Shown: one piece after another, positions 31,955-46,519 of the stretch | How positions within the stretch are numbered: the stretch's first letter is position 1 | How the letters are laid out: each line of letters opens with the position of its first letter | Virus record (IMG/VR): IMGVR_UViG_3300006654_000150 | Location: 1 to 50,750 of that record | Strand: one strand, 5' to 3' | From: a virus | Length of the DNA: 50,750 nucleotides | Notes under the pieces: generated by a model | Seen by the model: the letters and a program-made list of their open reading frames with translations, nothing else | Told to the model about the DNA's origin: nothing | Database searches by the model: none | Program-made: the position numbers and the translations under genes

Positions 31955-32622
31955 GAAGCACCTCCGATACGCTTAACTTCACGGTCCAGCGATTCCAGAA
32001 ACGTCTGCGTACTGTCGCGTGTGATCTGCGCAACACCCTGATCGCCGCCGCCCTGGTAGACTTGCCTGGCCTTCTCGGGGTCGCCGATCAGTGCCGGCTC
32101 ATCCTTGGCGCGCCCACGGAGAAACCCGGATGCTTGGCTGTTCTGGTGCTCACAGGTGCCAAGCAGCTTGCGAGGGAATGACTCGGGGGGCTGGACGGTG
32201 AAGCCCTGGTACAACTTCAGGAAGTGATTCTGAAGGAACGGATACTCGTCGTTCTCCGTCATGGAGACTTTGACCCAACCGCCCAGGCGCTCTATCGCGG
32301 CATGGATTCTCGGATCATCGAACACGACTGACCGGTAGTTGCCGACGCAACGCACGGCGTAATCCACCTTTGCCCAAGCCTCACCGGCAGCAGACTGGCT
32401 ATTGCCGGAAATGTGCTTGATAACATCGGCAGGCTTCGGGGCGAACTGGCCTGAGTCGGGATTCTTGACATGGCCCGACAAGCCGGTGCGGATATCTTTG
32501 AGGCTGTAGGCGCTCAAGGCACTGAACACCACGTCAAGCATGGCGTCGGATACTTGCTTCCCGTAGACGGCATAGGCTGCTGTCCAGATTTCAGCGAACT
32601 GTGCGCGATCATTCTTGGTCAT
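31951..32622 (-). CDS. Replication-associated protein (lambda P position)
   Basis: ATG 32622 lies 8 nt after GGGAGG. Follows the DUF1376-type initiator. Positional call. Confidence 0.5.
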   Translation of the reverse strand: MTKNDRAQFAEIWTAAYAVYGKQVSDAMLDVVFSALSAYSLKDIRTGLSGHVKNPDSGQFAPKPADVIKHISGNSQSAAGEAWAKVDYAVRCVGNYRSVVFDDPRIHAAIERLGGWVKVSMTENDEYPFLQNHFLKLYQGFTVQPPESFPRKLLGTCEHQNSQASGFLRGRAKDEPALIGDPEKARQVYQGGGDQGVAQITRDSTQTFLESLDREVKRIGGAS

Positions 32623-33454
32623 AACAATCACCTCCCGCTGCCCAGCGGCGAGCCACTTCCCGGTTGTGATCCTCTACGGAGGGGCGTCCAGCAAAGCGGC
32701 TTGTACCGTCCACCAGGTTGGATATCGGCAAAGGTGCGTCCAACTGCCCGATGTACTGGTTGAACTTCTCGGCATTGAACAGGGTGGCGGGCCTGAGATA
32801 TTGAGACATACCCGGATTGCTTGCCCATTCCTTGCATTTGCGATCAATGACTGCTTTGAAGTCAGCAAGCGTTGCCCCCTCCTTCGCCCTGGCCAGGATC
32901 AGTTTTGTGTTGGTTGGGGCTGATCGGAAATTGCGGCCTGCTTTCGAGTTGAGGTATTCGATAACTTCAGCGGAAATGTCTGGTGCGGCTTCAGTCGCAC
33001 AAGGTTGTTTCTTTGTATCTGTATCTGTATCTGTATCTGTATCTGTATCTGTATCTGTATGGGAACCTGTCCGCATGTCCGTCTGTTCTGCGTTCGCACT
33101 GCGTTCGCATGGTGTCGGCTCATCAGGCGTAGGCTTATGTCGCTTTTCGGCTGCTTTCCTTGCTGATTCTGACTTTGACTTGACCTTATCCAGATCCTTA
33201 TCGAGTCGATTGTGGAACCAGTAGCCATCCTTAATGACAAAAAATTCTTCCAGCGCAGGCCGTAGCTCCTGCCAATGTTCTGCGGACGTTCTGCAAACGC
33301 ATTGCAAACGCTGGTCGTTATCCGGCAGCGGCTTACCTGTCTGCCAGTAGTTCATAATGAGAAGCAGGTACGCGCCATGCTGATCGACATTCAAGTGCAT
33401 GGTGTCGGCCAGGTAATCGGCAACATACAGCTGCATGTATGGAAGTGCTGCCAT
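32609..33454 (-). CDS. Replication initiator-like protein (DUF1376/YdaU N-domain plus conserved phage C-terminal domain)
   Basis: N-domain: PYMQLYVADYLADTMHLNVDQHGAYLLLIMNYW. C-domain: VIEYLNSKAGRNFR...MSQYLRPATLFNAEKFNQY. The two are joined by a (TD)7 linker. Confidence 0.75.
   Translation of the reverse strand: MAALPYMQLYVADYLADTMHLNVDQHGAYLLLIMNYWQTGKPLPDNDQRLQCVCRTSAEHWQELRPALEEFFVIKDGYWFHNRLDKDLDKVKSKSESARKAAEKRHKPTPDEPTPCERSANAEQTDMRTGSHTDTDTDTDTDTDTDTKKQPCATEAAPDISAEVIEYLNSKAGRNFRSAPTNTKLILARAKEGATLADFKAVIDRKCKEWASNPGMSQYLRPATLFNAEKFNQYIGQLDAPLPISNLVDGTSRFAGRPSVEDHNREVARRWAAGGDCYDQE
33015..33060. repeat. Hexanucleotide microsatellite (GTATCT)x7.7
   Basis: Perfect tandem copies that encode the (TD)7 linker of the initiator gene on the minus strand. 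Confidence 0.95.
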
Positions 33455-33456
33455 GG

Positions 33457-33726
33457 TTACTGATCCTCCGGGTCGAAGTGCATAAGGTGCGAACCGGAAA
33501 CAACCCGACCATCCATCTCTTCGATAATATTTAGAATGTCGGTTTCGTTTTCATCGAGTGCCGTGGCAATGTCTTCCGGCATGGTCTGAAGATCACCGTC
33601 TGGAGTCGCGTCTTCGTAAAGCAGCAGGTAAACCGCGTACACGAGGCTGACAGGCGACTGACTCTTGCGAGCGATGGTCCGCCAAACGGGGTCTGTTAGC
33701 TTGAATCCTGGGAATATTTGGTTCAT
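33457..33726 (-). CDS. Hypothetical acidic protein
   Basis: 89 aa. AGAGGT RBS. First ORF after the non-coding gap. Confidence 0.55.
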   Translation of the reverse strand: MNQIFPGFKLTDPVWRTIARKSQSPVSLVYAVYLLLYEDATPDGDLQTMPEDIATALDENETDILNIIEEMDGRVVSGSHLMHFDPEDQ

Positions 33727-34000
33727 GATTACCTCTATCGTTTGATTTGAACCCCGGTAGGCTGTGGCGGCCCGCGATCCGGGGTTTTCTCGTTTATGTC
33801 AGGCCACTTTTCCGTCATGGCCCAGGACGACTACTTAATAAGGTGTCCGTTTGACGGTTACATGGCTGCCCTCCCCTATCCGGTTGAAATCAGACTCATG
33901 TTCAAATCGGCTTCCGCCGTCACCGCCAAAGGGCCAGTTTTAAGCCATGGTCCAGGGCTACAAGTTCGCAACCATCGTTGCTGTGATGCTTACTGCTCGC

Positions 34001-34139
34001 ATCTGGGAGGGCTCTGACCGGACTCGAACCGGCGCAACGCCATGACGCCCGAGGATGCTGTAGGCCATGACCCCACTGCAGCGCCTCGCTCCTGTCCTGC
34101 AGGCGGTCTAACCAACTGACCCACAGAACCCTCCCAGAT
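34001..34139 (-). ncRNA. tRNA-like structured RNA candidate (canonical D-arm and T-arm, 16-bp terminal helix, 71-nt non-canonical centre)
   Basis: On the minus strand a 16-bp helix forms between 34124..34139 and 34001..34016, with one U-G pair that would be A-C on the other strand. A 2-nt linker leads to the D-arm GGUC-AGUUGGUUA-GACC (34105..34121). The T-arm GCCGG-UUCGAGU-CCGGU (34017..34033) abuts the helix. Confidence 0.45.
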
Positions 34140-34254
34140 GCGCCCTGCTCCCAGGGCAAACACTGTTAATCTGTTTCCCGGCACTGGCTGAATAACCAGT
34201 ATTTTTTCCCCACTTATAGCGATTACTAAGAATCGCGTTCCGGGTAATCTGTAC

Positions 34255-34485
34255 TCATGCGCAGTCTTTGAATTCAAAAGTGCTGCTTAAATGGCCGCGA
34301 CTAACGAGAGCCAAGTAGACCCGCTCAACACGCGTAGCAGTTGGGTTCTGAACGTCCCCGCTAACCATCTTTGAAAGAGTGAAGTAGGAAACGTCGGCCT
34401 CTCTGGCGATGTCCGTCCAGTCACCCTTGGCGGCCAGCAATCCGTTCACGACAGCTTGAACAAGTCTGCTTTTCATATGGCTCAT
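34255..34485 (-). CDS. Cro-like small HTH regulator, first gene of the minus-strand early operon
   Basis: 76 aa. HTH segment: WTDIAREADVSYFTLSKMVSG. Divergent from the repressor gene across a 65-83 bp operator region. Confidence 0.65.
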   Translation of the reverse strand: MSHMKSRLVQAVVNGLLAAKGDWTDIAREADVSYFTLSKMVSGDVQNPTATRVERVYLALVSRGHLSSTFEFKDCA

Positions 34486-34546: not shown

Positions 34547-34568
34547 CGTTATGGATAGGAGAATCCCG

Positions 34569-34931
34569 ATGGAGCAGCGCGTAAAGAAAACGCTTGGTGA
34601 AAATTTATTTAAGCTCAGAAAGTTAAAGGGCGTGTCTCAAACCGCCATGGGAAATATCGCCAGAATAAGCCAGAAGACGGTATCAAACCTTGAGAGAGCG
34701 CAGTCTGAAAGCCTCCCGAATCTTCAAACGCTTATCTACGTTGCGGAGTATTTCAAGATACACCCTGGCGTGCTTTTAATGGCGGACCTTACGGACGACA
34801 CCCTTACTGACAGCGAAGTAAGCTTAATGCTTGAGCGCTTTGCCCAGTTGTCGGTGCCGCACAAGCGCCGGATTATGGACTTGATAGGCGACTACTGGAG
34901 CCTGGAAGCGAAACAGACAGACGCAAGCTAA
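34569..34931 (+). CDS. XRE-family HTH prophage repressor (cI analogue) without a peptidase S24 domain
   Basis: ATG 34569 is preceded by AGGAGA at 7 nt. HTH segment: LRKLKGVSQTAMGNIARISQKTVSNLE. At 120 aa there is no room for, and no trace of, an Ala-Gly/Ser-Lys autocleavage domain. Confidence 0.75.
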   Translation: MEQRVKKTLGENLFKLRKLKGVSQTAMGNIARISQKTVSNLERAQSESLPNLQTLIYVAEYFKIHPGVLLMADLTDDTLTDSEVSLMLERFAQLSVPHKRRIMDLIGDYWSLEAKQTDAS

Positions 34932-45027: not shown

Positions 45028-45242
45028 GTGCAGCAGAAAAGATCGAACGATTTCCAGTAACGTGCGGGCGCTGGGTGCGCGGCTCTCTCCTGCCCTCTAT
45101 GTACGGGATCAGCGAGGAAACCGCCCGAAAATATCGGGAGCGCGGCATCTGGCTGGAGGATAAGCACTGGCGCAAAGACCCGATTGGCCGGTATGTTTAT
45201 AACCCTTCAGCGATTGATGACTGGTTTGAGGGGAAGTTGTGA
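45024..45242 (+). CDS. xis: Excisionase
   Basis: 72 aa, directly upstream of and overlapping int. WRKDPIGRYVYNPSAIDDWF resembles the Xis C-terminal wing. Confidence 0.65.
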   Translation: MSAAEKIERFPVTCGRWVRGSLLPSMYGISEETARKYRERGIWLEDKHWRKDPIGRYVYNPSAIDDWFEGKL

Positions 45243-46519
45243 AGCTACCGAAGGGCGTTGAGCGGTTGCCGGCCGGCGTGGAAATCCATGGAAACAGGAT
45301 CCGGATAGCGTTCATGTTCTCCGGCAAGCGCTGCCGGGAACCTCTGCCGGGCGTGGCGAAAGTCACCAAAGGCACGATTGCGTATGCCGAGAACAAGCGG
45401 AAAGTGATACAGACCGAGATTCAGGAAGGCCGGTTTGATTACGCCTCGCACTTCCCCGGGTCCAAAAATGCCGCCCTGTTTAGCGGCTGGGGTGGTCCGG
45501 ACACGGGGCGCTTGGTATCGGAGGGTGTGACCGCCTGGCTGACGATTCAGGAAGGTAAGCGGGCGGTGAGCACCTACCGGAATTACAAGTCGAAGGCCAG
45601 GCATGTAACCGCCAAGTGGCCCCGGCGCCGAATCGCGGACGTGGCTAAATCCGAGATCGAACTATTCCAGACCGAACTATTGCGCCAGGGACTCAGCCCG
45701 AAAACCGCCAACGACATTTTCACGGTGGTGCGCGGCGTTTGGGCGTCAGCATTCTCTGATGGCGTCATTCGCGCCAATCCTCTGGACCGGATCCCGAATG
45801 TGGAGCGCGACCAGTCGGACGATTACGCGGACCCCTTCGACCTGAAAGAGCTTGAGCGCATCCAGTCAGTCAAGACCATGCGCCAGCAGGATATCAATAT
45901 GGTGATGTTCGCCTGTTGGTGTGGGTTGTCGCTGTCGGAATTGCTGGCATTGTCCTGGGATGACGTCGATACCGTTGACTGGGTGATCCATGTAAAGCGA
46001 GCGCGGGTTGAGAATGCGTTCAAGGTGCCGAAAGAACGGGCGCGGATACGTCGGGTTGAATTAATCGAGCCCGCGAAATACTGGCTGCAGCGCCAGCGGG
46101 AATCCACTTATCTGCAGCCGCCTGTGATTATCCAGGTGGTACAGCGGGACAACATTACCGTTAAGGATGACACGTTCAGGCCGGTGTTTCGTAATGGCCT
46201 GAGCAATCTGCCGTGGACCTATGGCAGTCTGTTGCGCTGGTTCTCTGGCCACCTGCGCAGAGCAAAAGTCAGGCATCGAGGCCCAAACCAGTGCCGGCAC
46301 ACGTTCGCCAGTCAAATGCTATCGAATTACGTTAGCCTGGAGTGGGTGGCCCGGCAACTTGGCCACACGGATACCACGATGGTGAAGAAACACTACGGCC
46401 GGTGGATCCAGAAAGACACACCAAATATGGCCGGACAGGTATCAGAAATGTTGGGCTATAAACCGGACAGAAGCGGACAGGAAAGCGCCGATTTTGCCCC
46501 AAAATTGCCCCAAAAATAA
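45239..46519 (+). CDS. int: Tyrosine integrase
   Basis: C-terminal catalytic region CRHTFASQML...LGHTDTTMVKKHYGRW (R, HxxR, Y). GTG start overlapping the xis stop. Confidence 0.9.
   Translation: MKLPKGVERLPAGVEIHGNRIRIAFMFSGKRCREPLPGVAKVTKGTIAYAENKRKVIQTEIQEGRFDYASHFPGSKNAALFSGWGGPDTGRLVSEGVTAWLTIQEGKRAVSTYRNYKSKARHVTAKWPRRRIADVAKSEIELFQTELLRQGLSPKTANDIFTVVRGVWASAFSDGVIRANPLDRIPNVERDQSDDYADPFDLKELERIQSVKTMRQQDINMVMFACWCGLSLSELLALSWDDVDTVDWVIHVKRARVENAFKVPKERARIRRVELIEPAKYWLQRQRESTYLQPPVIIQVVQRDNITVKDDTFRPVFRNGLSNLPWTYGSLLRWFSGHLRRAKVRHRGPNQCRHTFASQMLSNYVSLEWVARQLGHTDTTMVKKHYGRWIQKDTPNMAGQVSEMLGYKPDRSGQESADFAPKLPQK
46465..46479 (+). repeat. Two GGACA copies 10 bp apart (candidate P-arm Int/Xis sites)
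   Basis: cGGACAgaagcGGACAg inside the int 3' end. Same word and phase as the three copies right of the core. Confidence 0.4.
46498..46512 (+). repeat. CCCAAAATTGCCCCA motif, copy 1
   Basis: Shares the 15-nt core with 46680..46702 and 47025..47047. Confidence 0.6.

What the first reader, a model, noticed from the sequence alone, without database searches (positions are those of the whole stretch)
33727..34254. tRNA-like RNA candidate with exact tRNA junction geometry but a 71-nt centre, inside a 530-bp ORF-free gap of the early operon
Every other gene in this operon touches its neighbour, yet no minus-strand ORF longer than about 10 codons fits between the cro-like gene and the next ORF.

On the minus strand, 34001..34139 folds as follows:
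- A 16-bp terminal helix forms between 34124..34139 and 34001..34016. Its single non-Watson-Crick pair is U-G on this strand and would be A-C on the other, which argues for the minus strand.
- Exactly 2 nt (UG) follow, then the D-arm GGUC-AGUUGGUUA-GACC.
- The T-arm GCCGG-UUCGAGU-CCGGU directly abuts the 3' strand of the helix.

This is the acceptor/U8-N9/D-arm and T-arm/acceptor spacing of a real tRNA. Three things differ from a tRNA:
- The acceptor helix continues 9 bp into what would be leader and trailer, and no CCA is encoded.
- The anticodon/variable region is replaced by 71 nt. This region forms two hairpins (a 6-bp CUGCAG stem and an 8-bp stem) and contains a GUCAUGGC direct repeat.
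- I could not find a 5-bp/7-nt anticodon arm.

A GCCCUG-GGAG-CAGGGC hairpin sits immediately 5' of the element.

Possible roles, all speculative: an unusual or suppressor tRNA, a decoy for tRNA-targeting host nucleases, a processing or antitermination element, or an integration target for a satellite.
Basis: partly seen in the sequence, partly recalled or inferred. Interest (0 to 1): 0.75.

Follow-up and report, generated by a model that had tools for sequence, protein, structure and literature searches.

The report
tRNA-shaped insert in phage leader RNA
Between the cro-like gene and the replication genes of this prophage, a conserved RNA hairpin carries at its tip a tRNA-derived module with intact arms but no anticodon loop; related phages carry other inserts or none at that spot, so it is a real, unusual, non-decoding accessory RNA of unknown function.

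Summary
On the minus strand, 34130..34009 scores 36.6 bits against Rfam's tRNA model (threshold 29). The acceptor, U8, D-arm and T-arm are in exact register. An 18-19 bp helix runs 11-12 bp past the acceptor stem, and the centre is 71 nt.

It is not a decoding tRNA. ARAGORN is silent, no canonical anticodon arm can be restored, and no CCA is encoded.

The tRNA-like part sits at the tip of a two-hairpin leader frame: a 6-bp tetraloop hairpin directly followed by a long "GCAUC...GAUGC" stalk. Five other variants of this frame occur in metagenomic phages and show compensatory changes. Their stalk tips differ: 94 nt, 47 nt, 42 nt, or a plain loop. In one contig an HNH endonuclease gene lies between hairpin 1 and the stalk. 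A contig encoding an identical cro protein carries a different tip.

So the tRNA-like part is an exchangeable cargo. It looks tRNA-derived (Asn/Asp-like) and is probably released or displayed as a stable L-shaped RNA.

Caveats:
- Only identical copies exist, so there is no covariation for the tRNA part.
- Thermodynamic folding favours a competing rod (T-stem probability below 1%).
- A decaying tRNA remnant remains a serious rival.

A side scan found 63 other oversized tRNA-likes in viral contigs.

The parts
34255..34485 (-). cro-like repressor gene, upstream neighbour in the early rightward operon
   Evidence: ORF. PHROG 'transcriptional repressor', E = 6.5e-7. It diverges from an HTH_3 cI-like gene at 34551..34931 (+).
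34142..34157 (-). Hairpin 1: 6-bp stem GCCCUG/CAGGGC with GGAG tetraloop, directly abutting the stalk
   Evidence: Read and folded. Conserved in relatives with loops GAAG, GCAA and UACG (CGCAA in L027, which was left out of the count). Two of its 6 pairs show changes on both sides, and 100% of cells are paired.
34124..34141 (-). Stalk, 5' strand (GCAUCUGGGAGGGUUCUG). The last 7 nt, 34130..34124, serve as the acceptor-stem 5' strand.
   Evidence: Base-pair probability at least 0.98 for the 18 pairs. Self-complementarity shown. Stalk base GCAUC.../...GAUGC is conserved; 5 of its first 12 pairs show double changes across variants. One U.G pair (U34128.G34012) would be A.C on the other strand.
33999..34016 (-). 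Stalk, 3' strand (CAGAGCCCUCCCAGAUGC). The first 7 nt, 34016..34010, serve as the acceptor-stem 3' strand. C34009 is at the discriminator position and is paired. No CCA is encoded.
34009..34130 (-). tRNA-like module as matched by the Rfam tRNA model (positions 1-71 of 71)
   Evidence: 36.6 bits against gathering 29, E = 5.2e-6. ARAGORN gives none.
34105..34121 (-). D-arm GGUC-AGUUGGUUA-GACC (A14, G15, G18, G19 and A21 present), preceded by U8-G9 at 34123..34122
34034..34104 (-). 71-nt centre replacing the anticodon arm and variable loop. It contains the CUGCAG/CUGCAG stem (34102..34097 with 34081..34076), a possible second stem CGAGG/CCUCG, the GUCAUGGC direct repeat (34071..34064 and 34046..34039), and a 5-bp/7-nt hairpin GUGGG-GUCAUGG-CCUAC.
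   Evidence: No canonical anticodon arm is recoverable. The fold is unresolved because there are no sequence variants.
34017..34033 (-). T-arm GCCGG-UUCGAGU-CCGGU (G53, T54, T55, C56, A58 and C61 present). C34034 is at position 48, opposite G15.
   Evidence: The 3' half is closest to tRNA-Asn alleles in E. coli genomes, with weak E-values.
33958..33976 (-). Conserved leader block GAUGGUUGCGAACUUGUAG downstream of the stalk
   Evidence: The window and L013 share all 19 nt. L027 shares the first 16 with one substitution, then has an insertion. The surrounding leaders are otherwise diverged.
33727..33957 (-). 3' part of the leader: two copies of a hairpin motif CCUGGNCCAUGNCNNAAAANUGGCC (about 33958..33928 and 33833..33803), and a final hairpin AACCCCGG...CCGGGGUU (33786..33750) before the ribosome-binding site
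   Evidence: 81% identity over 144 nt with L027, although the downstream gene differs. No frame is conserved as coding.
33457..33726 (-). 89-aa gene, first gene of the replication module
   Evidence: Matches the N-terminal part of PHROG replication initiation proteins. It is followed by a DUF1376/Phg_2220_C protein at 32609..33454.

Best explanation
The element is an accessory, exchangeable RNA cargo. It is a tRNA-derived (Asn/Asp-like) L-shaped module that has kept its acceptor/T stack, D-arm and elbow but lost its anticodon loop. It sits at the tip of an 18-19 bp stalk that belongs to a conserved structured leader RNA of the early rightward operon, at the position where lambdoid phages have nutR or putR.

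Shown:
- The tRNA-like anatomy.
- The RNA-level, covarying frame of hairpin 1 plus stalk.
- The replacement of the tip by unrelated sequences in relatives.

Inferred:
- The leader is transcribed from the cro promoter.
- The long stalk is cut by a double-strand-specific nuclease of the RNase III type, or simply displays its tip.
- The tRNA fold gives the released or displayed RNA stability and access to tRNA-recognising factors.
- It therefore acts either as a decoy or sponge for such a factor, or as a natural 'tRNA scaffold' presenting the 71-nt insert.

It does not decode.
For: tRNA anatomy:
- tRNA model 36.6 bits, above the gathering score of 29.
- All tertiary-contact positions are present: U8, A14, G15/C48, G18, G19, G53, T54, T55, C56, A58, C61.
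- A geometry scan found no false positives in the sequence then held.

The frame is a real RNA structure:
- Over the 7 frame sequences compared, 97% of cells are paired, against 30-53% when partners are slid.
- 7 pairs show changes on both sides; only 3 of 500 shuffles reach this.
- There are G.U pairs on the sense strand in the window, L006, L012 and L002.

The cargo is exchangeable:
- Tips of 94 nt (L002), 42 nt (L006/L012), 47 nt (L013) or a bare tetraloop (L027).
- L029 encodes a cro protein identical to the window's. Its upstream sequence matches the window's until a few bases before hairpin 1, and then carries an L002-like tip.

Other points:
- The stalk top (GGGYUCU/AGAGCCC) is shared with L013, which has no tRNA features.
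- The same tRNA-like sequence is present in two independent datasets.
- tRNA-shaped RNAs without a canonical anticodon arm are common in viral contigs: 50 of the 63 other distinct oversized elements from one motif scan, all missed by ARAGORN. There is also a 70-nt one with a GAAA loop in L060.
Against: - There is no sequence variation in the tRNA-like part, so no covariation supports its fold or function.
- Nearest-neighbour folding prefers a rod in which the insert pairs with the D- and T-arm sequences. The cloverleaf-constrained fold is 3.2 kcal/mol worse, and D- and T-stem probabilities are below 1%. Only 9% of 45 real phage tRNAs and 5% of the other oversized tRNA-likes fall below 5%.
- A contig encoding the same cro protein lacks it, so it is dispensable.
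- The buried acceptor end argues against ordinary RNase P or RNase Z maturation.
- No processing, stability or binding partner has been shown. L027's stalk, at about 15-16 bp, is short for an RNase III site.
Confidence: 0.4

Rival explanations
1. It is a decaying remnant of a former phage or host tRNA gene (Asn/Asp-like) that once sat in this leader. Its anticodon region has been destroyed by insertions and a tandem duplication. It is now neutral filler at a recombination-prone spot.
For: - The closest natural matches are tRNA-Asp for the 5' half and tRNA-Asn for the 3' half.
- The centre contains a duplicated GGG(C)GUCAUGGC segment typical of slippage.
- The cloverleaf is disfavoured thermodynamically.
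- The element is absent from a contig with the same cro protein.
- No variants exist to show purifying selection.
Against: - Damage is confined to the anticodon and variable region. All 21 base pairs of the acceptor, D and T stems and every elbow nucleotide are intact, and the junction spacing is exact. Random decay should also hit these.
- The acceptor helix is seamlessly continuous with a selected, covarying stalk.
Confidence: 0.3
2. It is a cis-acting processing signal, a form of 'tRNA punctuation'. The tRNA shape recruits RNase P or another tRNA-processing enzyme to cut the polycistronic early transcript between cro and the replication genes. This uncouples their stability or translation.
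For: - It lies exactly between two functional modules of one operon.
- The acceptor/T minihelix and elbow, the main RNase P determinants by established knowledge, are intact.
- A bacterial Y RNA with a 7-bp acceptor-like stem is cleaved by RNase P (PMC4201824).
Against: - The -1/+1 junction is inside a continuous duplex of 11-12 further pairs, with no single-stranded leader or 3' CCA. By established knowledge that is a poor RNase P substrate.
- Relatives achieve whatever the leader does without any tRNA-like tip.
Confidence: 0.12
3. The conserved frame (hairpin 1 plus stalk) is a processive antitermination or termination-control element of the nut or put type. The tRNA-like tip is irrelevant decoration.
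For: - Position downstream of cro in the early rightward operon; putR lies about 270 nt downstream of the PR start (PMC9378689).
- Two adjacent hairpins that covary.
- The frame is kept across two unrelated cro types and different downstream genes.
- The hairpin 1 stem GCCCU/AGGGC equals the lambda boxB stem (from memory).
Against: - No second copy behind a leftward promoter in the window.
- No boxA-like sequence upstream.
- Sizes differ from put, which is two hairpins of about 35 nt.
- Hairpin loops vary freely: GGAG, GAAG, GCAA, UACG.
- In L012 an HNH gene separates hairpin 1 from the stalk.
- In L002-type phages a terminator-like hairpin lies upstream of the frame, not downstream.
Confidence: 0.2
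4. It is a functional decoding tRNA: an unusual, suppressor or intron-containing tRNA.
For: The Rfam tRNA score is above threshold. A 7-nt loop GUCAUGG with U at its second position exists in the centre.
Against: - ARAGORN gives none.
- No single-segment deletion restores a canonical arm. Thirteen of the 63 other oversized elements do pass this test.
- No CCA, and the 3' end is buried.
- The centre is far beyond any known variable arm.
Confidence: 0.03
5. It is a DNA-level element: a replication origin, an attachment site for a satellite, or a homing-endonuclease target formed by the inverted repeat.
For: It lies just upstream of the replication genes. In L012 an HNH_3 endonuclease gene is inserted right at the stalk. 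Tips are mosaic.
Against: - G.U pairs occur only on the sense strand in several variants.
- The tRNA model matches one strand only.
- There is no repeat of the element elsewhere in the window.
- Tetraloops of the GNRA and UNCG type on hairpin 1 point to RNA.
Confidence: 0.05

Closest known systems
Canonical tRNA (Rfam RF00005)
   Same: 7-bp acceptor helix, U8-N9 spacer, 4-bp D stem with A14/G18G19/A21, and 5-bp T stem with the GTTCRA loop. Scores above the family's gathering threshold. Sequence is closest to tRNA-Asn and tRNA-Asp.
   Different: No anticodon arm at positions 27-43. A 71-nt centre. No CCA. The acceptor helix continues 11-12 bp, so there is no free end. Not called by ARAGORN.
Bacterial Y RNAs with a tRNA-like domain (YrlA; D. 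radiodurans Yrn1)
   Same: A noncoding RNA made of a long basal helix plus a module that mimics tRNA D and T arms without a free CCA end. Yrn1 has the same order: basal helix at the acceptor position, then D-like, middle arm, T (PMC4201824). Some are phage-encoded.
   Different: - No Rfam family other than tRNA matches.
- No Ro60/TROVE hit among the ORFs scanned.
- No GNCGAAN0-1G motif in the stalk.
- YrlA is circularly permuted relative to this element.
- Here the RNA is embedded in an mRNA leader.
tmRNA tRNA-like domain
   Same: An acceptor/T-arm stack formed by distant 5' and 3' segments, with a large non-tRNA insert in between.
   Different: A full D-arm is present here. The 3:70 pair is U.G, not the G.U alanine identity pair. 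No tag reading frame and no CCA. ARAGORN finds no tmRNA.
HK022 put RNA, and lambda nutL/nutR with the RNase III hairpin of the N leader
   Same: Structured RNA just downstream of cro in the early operon, with a small hairpin next to a larger one. The hairpin 1 stem sequence equals that of lambda boxB (from memory).
   Different: No sequence or size match to put. No boxA. No second copy. Loops are not conserved. Function is untested.
Engineered tRNA scaffolds, and mascRNA-type tRNA-like processing modules
   Same: A tRNA body used as a stable, processable carrier with the anticodon arm replaced by another RNA. A tRNA-like module embedded in a longer transcript.
   Different: Those are artificial or eukaryotic. 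Here the acceptor end is locked in a long duplex, and no processing has been shown.

Membership tests
tRNA (decoding) | Covariance-model score at or above the Rfam gathering threshold | tested here: met
   36.6 bits against 29 in the permissive small-region scan. Missed by the default-filter whole-window scan.
tRNA (decoding) | Acceptor, D and T arms in canonical register, with conserved elbow nucleotides | tested here: met
tRNA (decoding) | 5-bp anticodon stem with a 7-nt loop (U33, R37) directly after position 26 | tested here: not met
   The model aligns only 4 bp plus a 5-nt loop, at low posterior probability. There are no solutions in the intron-removal test.
tRNA (decoding) | Variable region of 4-21 nt | tested here: not met
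   71 nt lie between the D and T stems, against about 22-39 nt in canonical tRNAs.
tRNA (decoding) | Free acceptor end: unpaired discriminator, with CCA encoded or addable | tested here: not met
   The discriminator C34009 is paired, the helix continues up to 12 bp in all, and no CCA is present. Sixty-two of the 63 other oversized tRNA-likes extend by 2 bp or less; one extends by 5.
tRNA (decoding) | Called by a dedicated tRNA finder | tested here: not met
   ARAGORN finds 0 genes in the window. tRNAscan-SE was not available.
Intron-containing tRNA | Removing one contiguous segment restores a canonical anticodon arm | tested here: not met
   0 solutions for the window. Thirteen of the 63 other oversized viral elements pass; shuffled controls pass about 3% of the time.
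tmRNA | G3:U70 pair, tag reading frame, detection by ARAGORN | tested here: not met
   The 3:70 pair is U.G. ARAGORN finds no tmRNA.
Y RNA (YrlA/Yrn1) | Match to a curated Y RNA model | tested here: not met
   Only tRNA, plus one chance snoRNA hit, at E up to 10.
Y RNA (YrlA/Yrn1) | Ro60/Rsr (TROVE) gene nearby | tested here: not met
   No TROVE hit among the 18 window ORFs scanned with Pfam, including the 10 largest plausible genes. Not every ORF was scanned.
Y RNA (YrlA/Yrn1) | GNCGAAN0-1G Ro-binding motif in the basal stem (PMC4201824) | tested here: not met
   Absent from GCAUCUGGGAGGGUUCUG and its partner strand.
HK022 put RNA | About 70 nt forming two bulged stem-loops of similar size | tested here: not met
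   The frame is a 16-nt hairpin plus a stalk element of about 37 to 143 nt.
HK022 put RNA | Copies behind both early promoters | tested here: not met
   No second copy in the window.
HK022 put RNA | Factor-independent antitermination through the RNA polymerase beta-prime zinc-binding domain | not testable with these tools
   Needs transcription assays.
Lambda-type nut site | boxA (CGCUCUUA-like) upstream of a boxB hairpin with a conserved loop | tested here: not met
   No boxA upstream. Loops differ among relatives: GGAG, GAAG, GCAA, UACG.
RNase III processing stalk | About two turns of near-perfect duplex RNA that is cleaved in vivo | tested here: inconclusive
   18-19 bp, plus a possibly coaxial 5-bp T stem in the window; 15-21 bp in relatives. 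Cleavage cannot be tested here.

The most novel reading that the evidence does not exclude
Phages use the tRNA body as a natural scaffold for non-decoding RNAs. The window's element would be one such cargo plugged into an exchangeable slot at the tip of a conserved early-leader stalk. It would belong to a broad, so far uncatalogued population of tRNA-shaped RNAs without a recognisable anticodon arm in viral genomes. These RNAs might act on tRNA-recognising host or defence factors.
Probability: 0.3. Interest if true: 0.8.

Novelty: new variant of a known kind. Interest (0 to 1): 0.55.

Why it matters
If functional, this would be a phage-encoded tRNA mimic of a new build: canonical arm order, anticodon arm replaced, and acceptor end locked in an mRNA-leader stalk. 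It would also show that a structured early-leader hairpin can serve as a plug-in site for different RNA cargoes, and in one relative for a homing endonuclease gene.

It would link to two open questions. One is what non-decoding tRNA-like RNAs in phages do, for example as decoys for tRNA-targeting defences, sponges for processing enzymes, or carriers for small RNAs. The other is how many such genes are missed because tRNA finders require an anticodon loop.

If it is only a decayed tRNA, it is a curiosity. The conserved leader frame would remain an uncharacterised regulatory RNA.

Tried and rejected
- DNA similarity of the 701-nt region to the phage and E. coli genome collections gave no match.
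- An exact-pattern scan for the window-type D-arm...T-arm in IMG/VR gave 0 hits.
- The frame-pattern scans of genome and metagenome contigs returned almost only chance matches. L014-L021 and L023-L025 were rejected after reading.
- Protein-guided locus searches with the two cro types found nothing new.
- Thirty-four loci found through the replication protein contain no further frame member, by regex or by a covariance model of the frame. The model copes poorly with large tip insertions.
- Rfam found nothing in the relatives' leaders.
- Coding potential of the gap was rejected.
- A second, nutL/putL-like copy in the window was not found.
- Y RNA membership was rejected on motif, topology and the absence of a TROVE hit among the ORFs scanned.
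- Host identification through exact protein look-up failed.
- Literature searches found no description of this leader frame or of anticodon-less oversized tRNA-likes in phages. These are not exhaustive.
- RNAalifold on the largest oversized family confirmed the tRNA frame but gave no clear structure for its centre.
Full report
**1. What is in the sequence**

Read on the minus strand, the interval contains these features in order:
- a 6-bp hairpin with a GGAG loop (34157..34142);
- immediately after it, an 18-bp helix between 34141..34124 and 33999..34016, or 19 bp if C34142 pairs with G33998;
- at the top of that helix, in exact tRNA register: a U-G spacer, a D-arm GGUC-AGUUGGUUA-GACC (34121..34105), a 71-nt centre (34104..34034), and a T-arm GCCGG-UUCGAGU-CCGGU (34033..34017) abutting the 3' strand.

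Every nucleotide that builds the tRNA elbow and core is present: U8, A14, G15 with C48, G18, G19, G53, T54, T55, C56, A58 and C61.

Detection by the standard tools:
- ARAGORN calls nothing.
- The default Rfam scan of the whole window finds nothing.
- A permissive scan of 701 nt matches the tRNA model end to end at 36.6 bits (gathering 29, E = 5e-6), on the minus strand only. The match carries a 54-nt insertion and a poorly aligned anticodon arm.

A strict scanner of my own required a T arm, a 7/7 acceptor, a 2-nt spacer and a D arm. Over the window and all 63 loci then held, it found only this element (with its identical copies) and one genuine tRNA.

The helix is longer than 16 bp. Mechanical ORFs of 95, 79, 36 and 31 aa do cross the gap. 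They have no family hits, and no frame is conserved as coding.

**2. Context**

The window is a temperate phage or prophage.
- A cI-like HTH_3 gene (34551..34931, +) diverges from a cro-like repressor (34255..34485, -).
- After the 528-nt gap come an 89-aa protein resembling the N-terminus of replication initiators, a DUF1376/Phg_2220_C primosomal-type protein, a DUF6475 protein, a late-activator-like protein and methyltransferases.
- A portal gene and an integrase lie elsewhere.

The gap occupies the place where lambda has nutR/tR1 and HK022 has putR.

**3. Relatives change the picture**

Nothing similar exists in the annotated phage or E. coli collections. Exact-protein look-ups and pattern scans recovered a small set of metagenomic relatives:
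- L001/L028, identical to the window;
- L002-L005 and L007-L011;
- L006;
- L012;
- L013 (the same contig region as L022 and L026);
- L027;
- L029.

All share a frame. The conserved sequence CAGUGUUU(U) precedes a 6-bp tetraloop hairpin, which is followed at once by a stalk beginning GCAUC and ending GAUGC (L027 and L029 differ slightly in these flanks). Hairpin loops are GGAG, GAAG, GCAA, UACG and, in L027, CGCAA.

I built a hand-trimmed alignment of hairpin 1 plus the first 12 stalk pairs from the 7 frame sequences (A4). Tips were replaced by AAAA and two bulges were removed. On it:
- 97% of cells are paired, against 30-53% when partners are slid;
- 7 pairs show changes on both sides, reached by 3 of 500 shuffles.

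G.U pairs lie on the sense strand in several variants. The frame is therefore an RNA structure under selection.

The frame persists across two unrelated cro families and different downstream genes.

The stalk tip is not conserved:

| Locus | Stalk tip |
|---|---|
| window | 107-nt tRNA-like body (122 nt by the Rfam match, which includes the acceptor) |
| L002 type | 94-nt unrelated sequence |
| L013 | 47 nt |
| L006 and L012 | 42 nt |
| L027 | plain hairpin loop |

In L012 an HNH_3 endonuclease gene sits between hairpin 1 and the stalk. L029 encodes a cro protein identical to the window's. Its upstream sequence matches the window's until a few bases before hairpin 1, and it then carries an L002-like tip. 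Rfam recognises nothing in the other tips.

The top seven stalk pairs, which serve as the 'acceptor stem' in the window (GGUUCUG/CAGAGCC), are almost the same in L013 (GGCUCUA/UAGAGCC). L013 has no tRNA features.

The tRNA-like body is thus one exchangeable cargo on a conserved stalk.

**4. Origin of the cargo**
- The only annotated tRNAs hit by the element in the phage collection are tRNA-Asp, with weak E-values.
- Among 63 tRNAs compared segment by segment, tRNA-Asp rank first, but only marginally. My recalled E. coli tRNA-Asp sequence was verified.
- The 3' half is closest to tRNA-Asn alleles in E. coli genomes, again with weak E-values.

The centre keeps a tRNA-Asp-like CCUGC/GCAG stem, but with a 15-19-nt loop. 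It also carries a roughly 45-nt expansion that includes a duplicated GGG(C)GUCAUGGC segment. The module therefore looks tRNA-derived.

**5. It is not a decoder**

No deletion of a single contiguous segment restores a 5-bp/7-nt arm with U33 and R37. Thirteen of the 63 other oversized viral tRNA-likes pass that test, and shuffled controls pass about 3% of the time. No CCA is encoded, and the discriminator and the following bases are paired.

**6. Evidence against a stable tRNA fold**

With nearest-neighbour energies:
- The cloverleaf-constrained fold is -68.2 kcal/mol, against an MFE of -71.4 kcal/mol.
- D- and T-stem probabilities are below 1%, because the insert can pair with both arms.
- Only 9% of 45 real phage tRNAs and 5% of the other oversized tRNA-likes have T-stem probabilities below 5%.

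Tertiary contacts are not modelled, so this weighs against the fold without refuting it. All copies are identical, so there is no covariation test for the tRNA-like part.

**7. A wider phenomenon, seen in passing**

It gave 63 distinct oversized tRNA-likes apart from the window's, each with 6-7 of 7 acceptor pairs in register. Those checked are missed by ARAGORN. They score 33-51 bits on the tRNA model, and no other Rfam family covers their centres.

Fifty of the 63 have no recoverable anticodon arm. The largest family has 18 variants. None has an acceptor extension above 5 bp, against up to 12 in the window.

L060, a phage with a related replication protein, carries a 70-nt tRNA-like whose anticodon loop is a GAAA tetraloop (32.4 bits).

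Non-decoding tRNA-shaped RNAs therefore seem common in phages. Being embedded in a stalk is what sets the window's element apart.

**8. Mechanism**

- Best supported (confidence about 0.4): an accessory tRNA-derived scaffold or mimic, displayed on or released from a conserved leader stalk. It would act through its tRNA shape or through the 71-nt insert. The anatomy, the frame covariation and the cargo exchange are shown. Processing, stability and target are inferred.
- Main rival (about 0.3): a decaying tRNA remnant.
- Others: a cis RNase P-type punctuation signal (0.12); a nut/put-like role for the frame, with the tip irrelevant (0.2, not exclusive of the others); a DNA-level element (0.05); a decoding tRNA (0.03).

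**9. Comparison with known families**

It meets the structural core of tRNA but fails the anticodon, variable-region, free-end and tRNA-finder criteria.

It works most like the tRNA-mimicking Y RNAs. Deinococcus Yrn1 has the same arm order on a long basal helix (PMC4201824). The element fails the Y RNA membership tests: no model match, no Ro-binding motif, and no TROVE hit among the ORFs scanned.

The frame resembles put and nut only in position.

**Verdict:** a new variant of a known kind (tRNA mimic), of moderate interest.

Noticed in passing
L064-L183 (IMG/VR loci), e.g. L173:7544-7651(+), L182:6105-6214(+), L070:10147-10253(-): 63 distinct oversized tRNA-like sequences: canonical acceptor, D and T arms, but 53-82 nt in place of the anticodon and variable region. 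On the loci checked, ARAGORN misses them and no Rfam family other than tRNA covers them. Fifty have no recoverable anticodon arm; 13 look like short introns in the anticodon loop. The largest family (ACCCAAG..., 18 variants, mostly from sample 3300045988) sat in a locus with no ARAGORN-called tRNA (L071, the one checked). Others sit inside large tRNA clusters.
   Followed up: partly
L060:951-1020(+): A 70-nt tRNA-like (Rfam tRNA 32.4 bits; ARAGORN silent) whose anticodon loop is replaced by a GAAA tetraloop on a 5-bp stem. It lies between a 61-aa ORF and an ORF I read as exonuclease-like (not scanned), about 1.5 kb upstream of a DUF1376-type replication gene related to the window's.
   Followed up: partly
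L012:255-797(-): An HNH_3 homing-type endonuclease gene (E = 5e-16) starts right after a truncated window-type 5' stalk strand (GCAUCUGGAUGGGG). An L006-type stalk follows it. The stalk therefore also accepts a protein-coding mobile gene and may be its homing site.
   Followed up: partly
window 33958..33976(-); about 33928..33958(-) and 33803..33833(-): A 19-nt block GAUGGUUGCGAACUUGUAG is shared in full by the window and L013 and largely by L027, in otherwise diverged leaders. The leader also holds two copies of a hairpin motif CCUGGNCCAUGNCNNAAAANUGGCC. Its 3' part is 81% identical to L027 although the downstream gene differs.
   Followed up: partly
window 34183..34206(+): A terminator-like hairpin ACTGG-CTGAATAA-CCAGT followed by a T-run on the plus strand, antisense to the leader. 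No plus-strand promoter-like site was found inside the gap.
   Followed up: no
L002:3585-3625(+): In the L002-type phages, a terminator-like hairpin GGGGAA...UUCCCC followed by U6 overlaps the cro stop codon, upstream of hairpin 1. The window lacks it.
   Followed up: no
window 32609..33454(-), residues about 133-147: The replication protein contains a (Thr-Asp)7 repeat, HTDTDTDTDTDTDTDTKK. The homologue in L060 has a related TDTDTETETNTDTKTDT stretch.
   Followed up: no
window 45239..46519(+): A tyrosine integrase with an Arm-DNA-bind_2 domain. No tRNA gene is detected anywhere in the window, so the attachment site is not an intact tRNA within this stretch.
   Followed up: no
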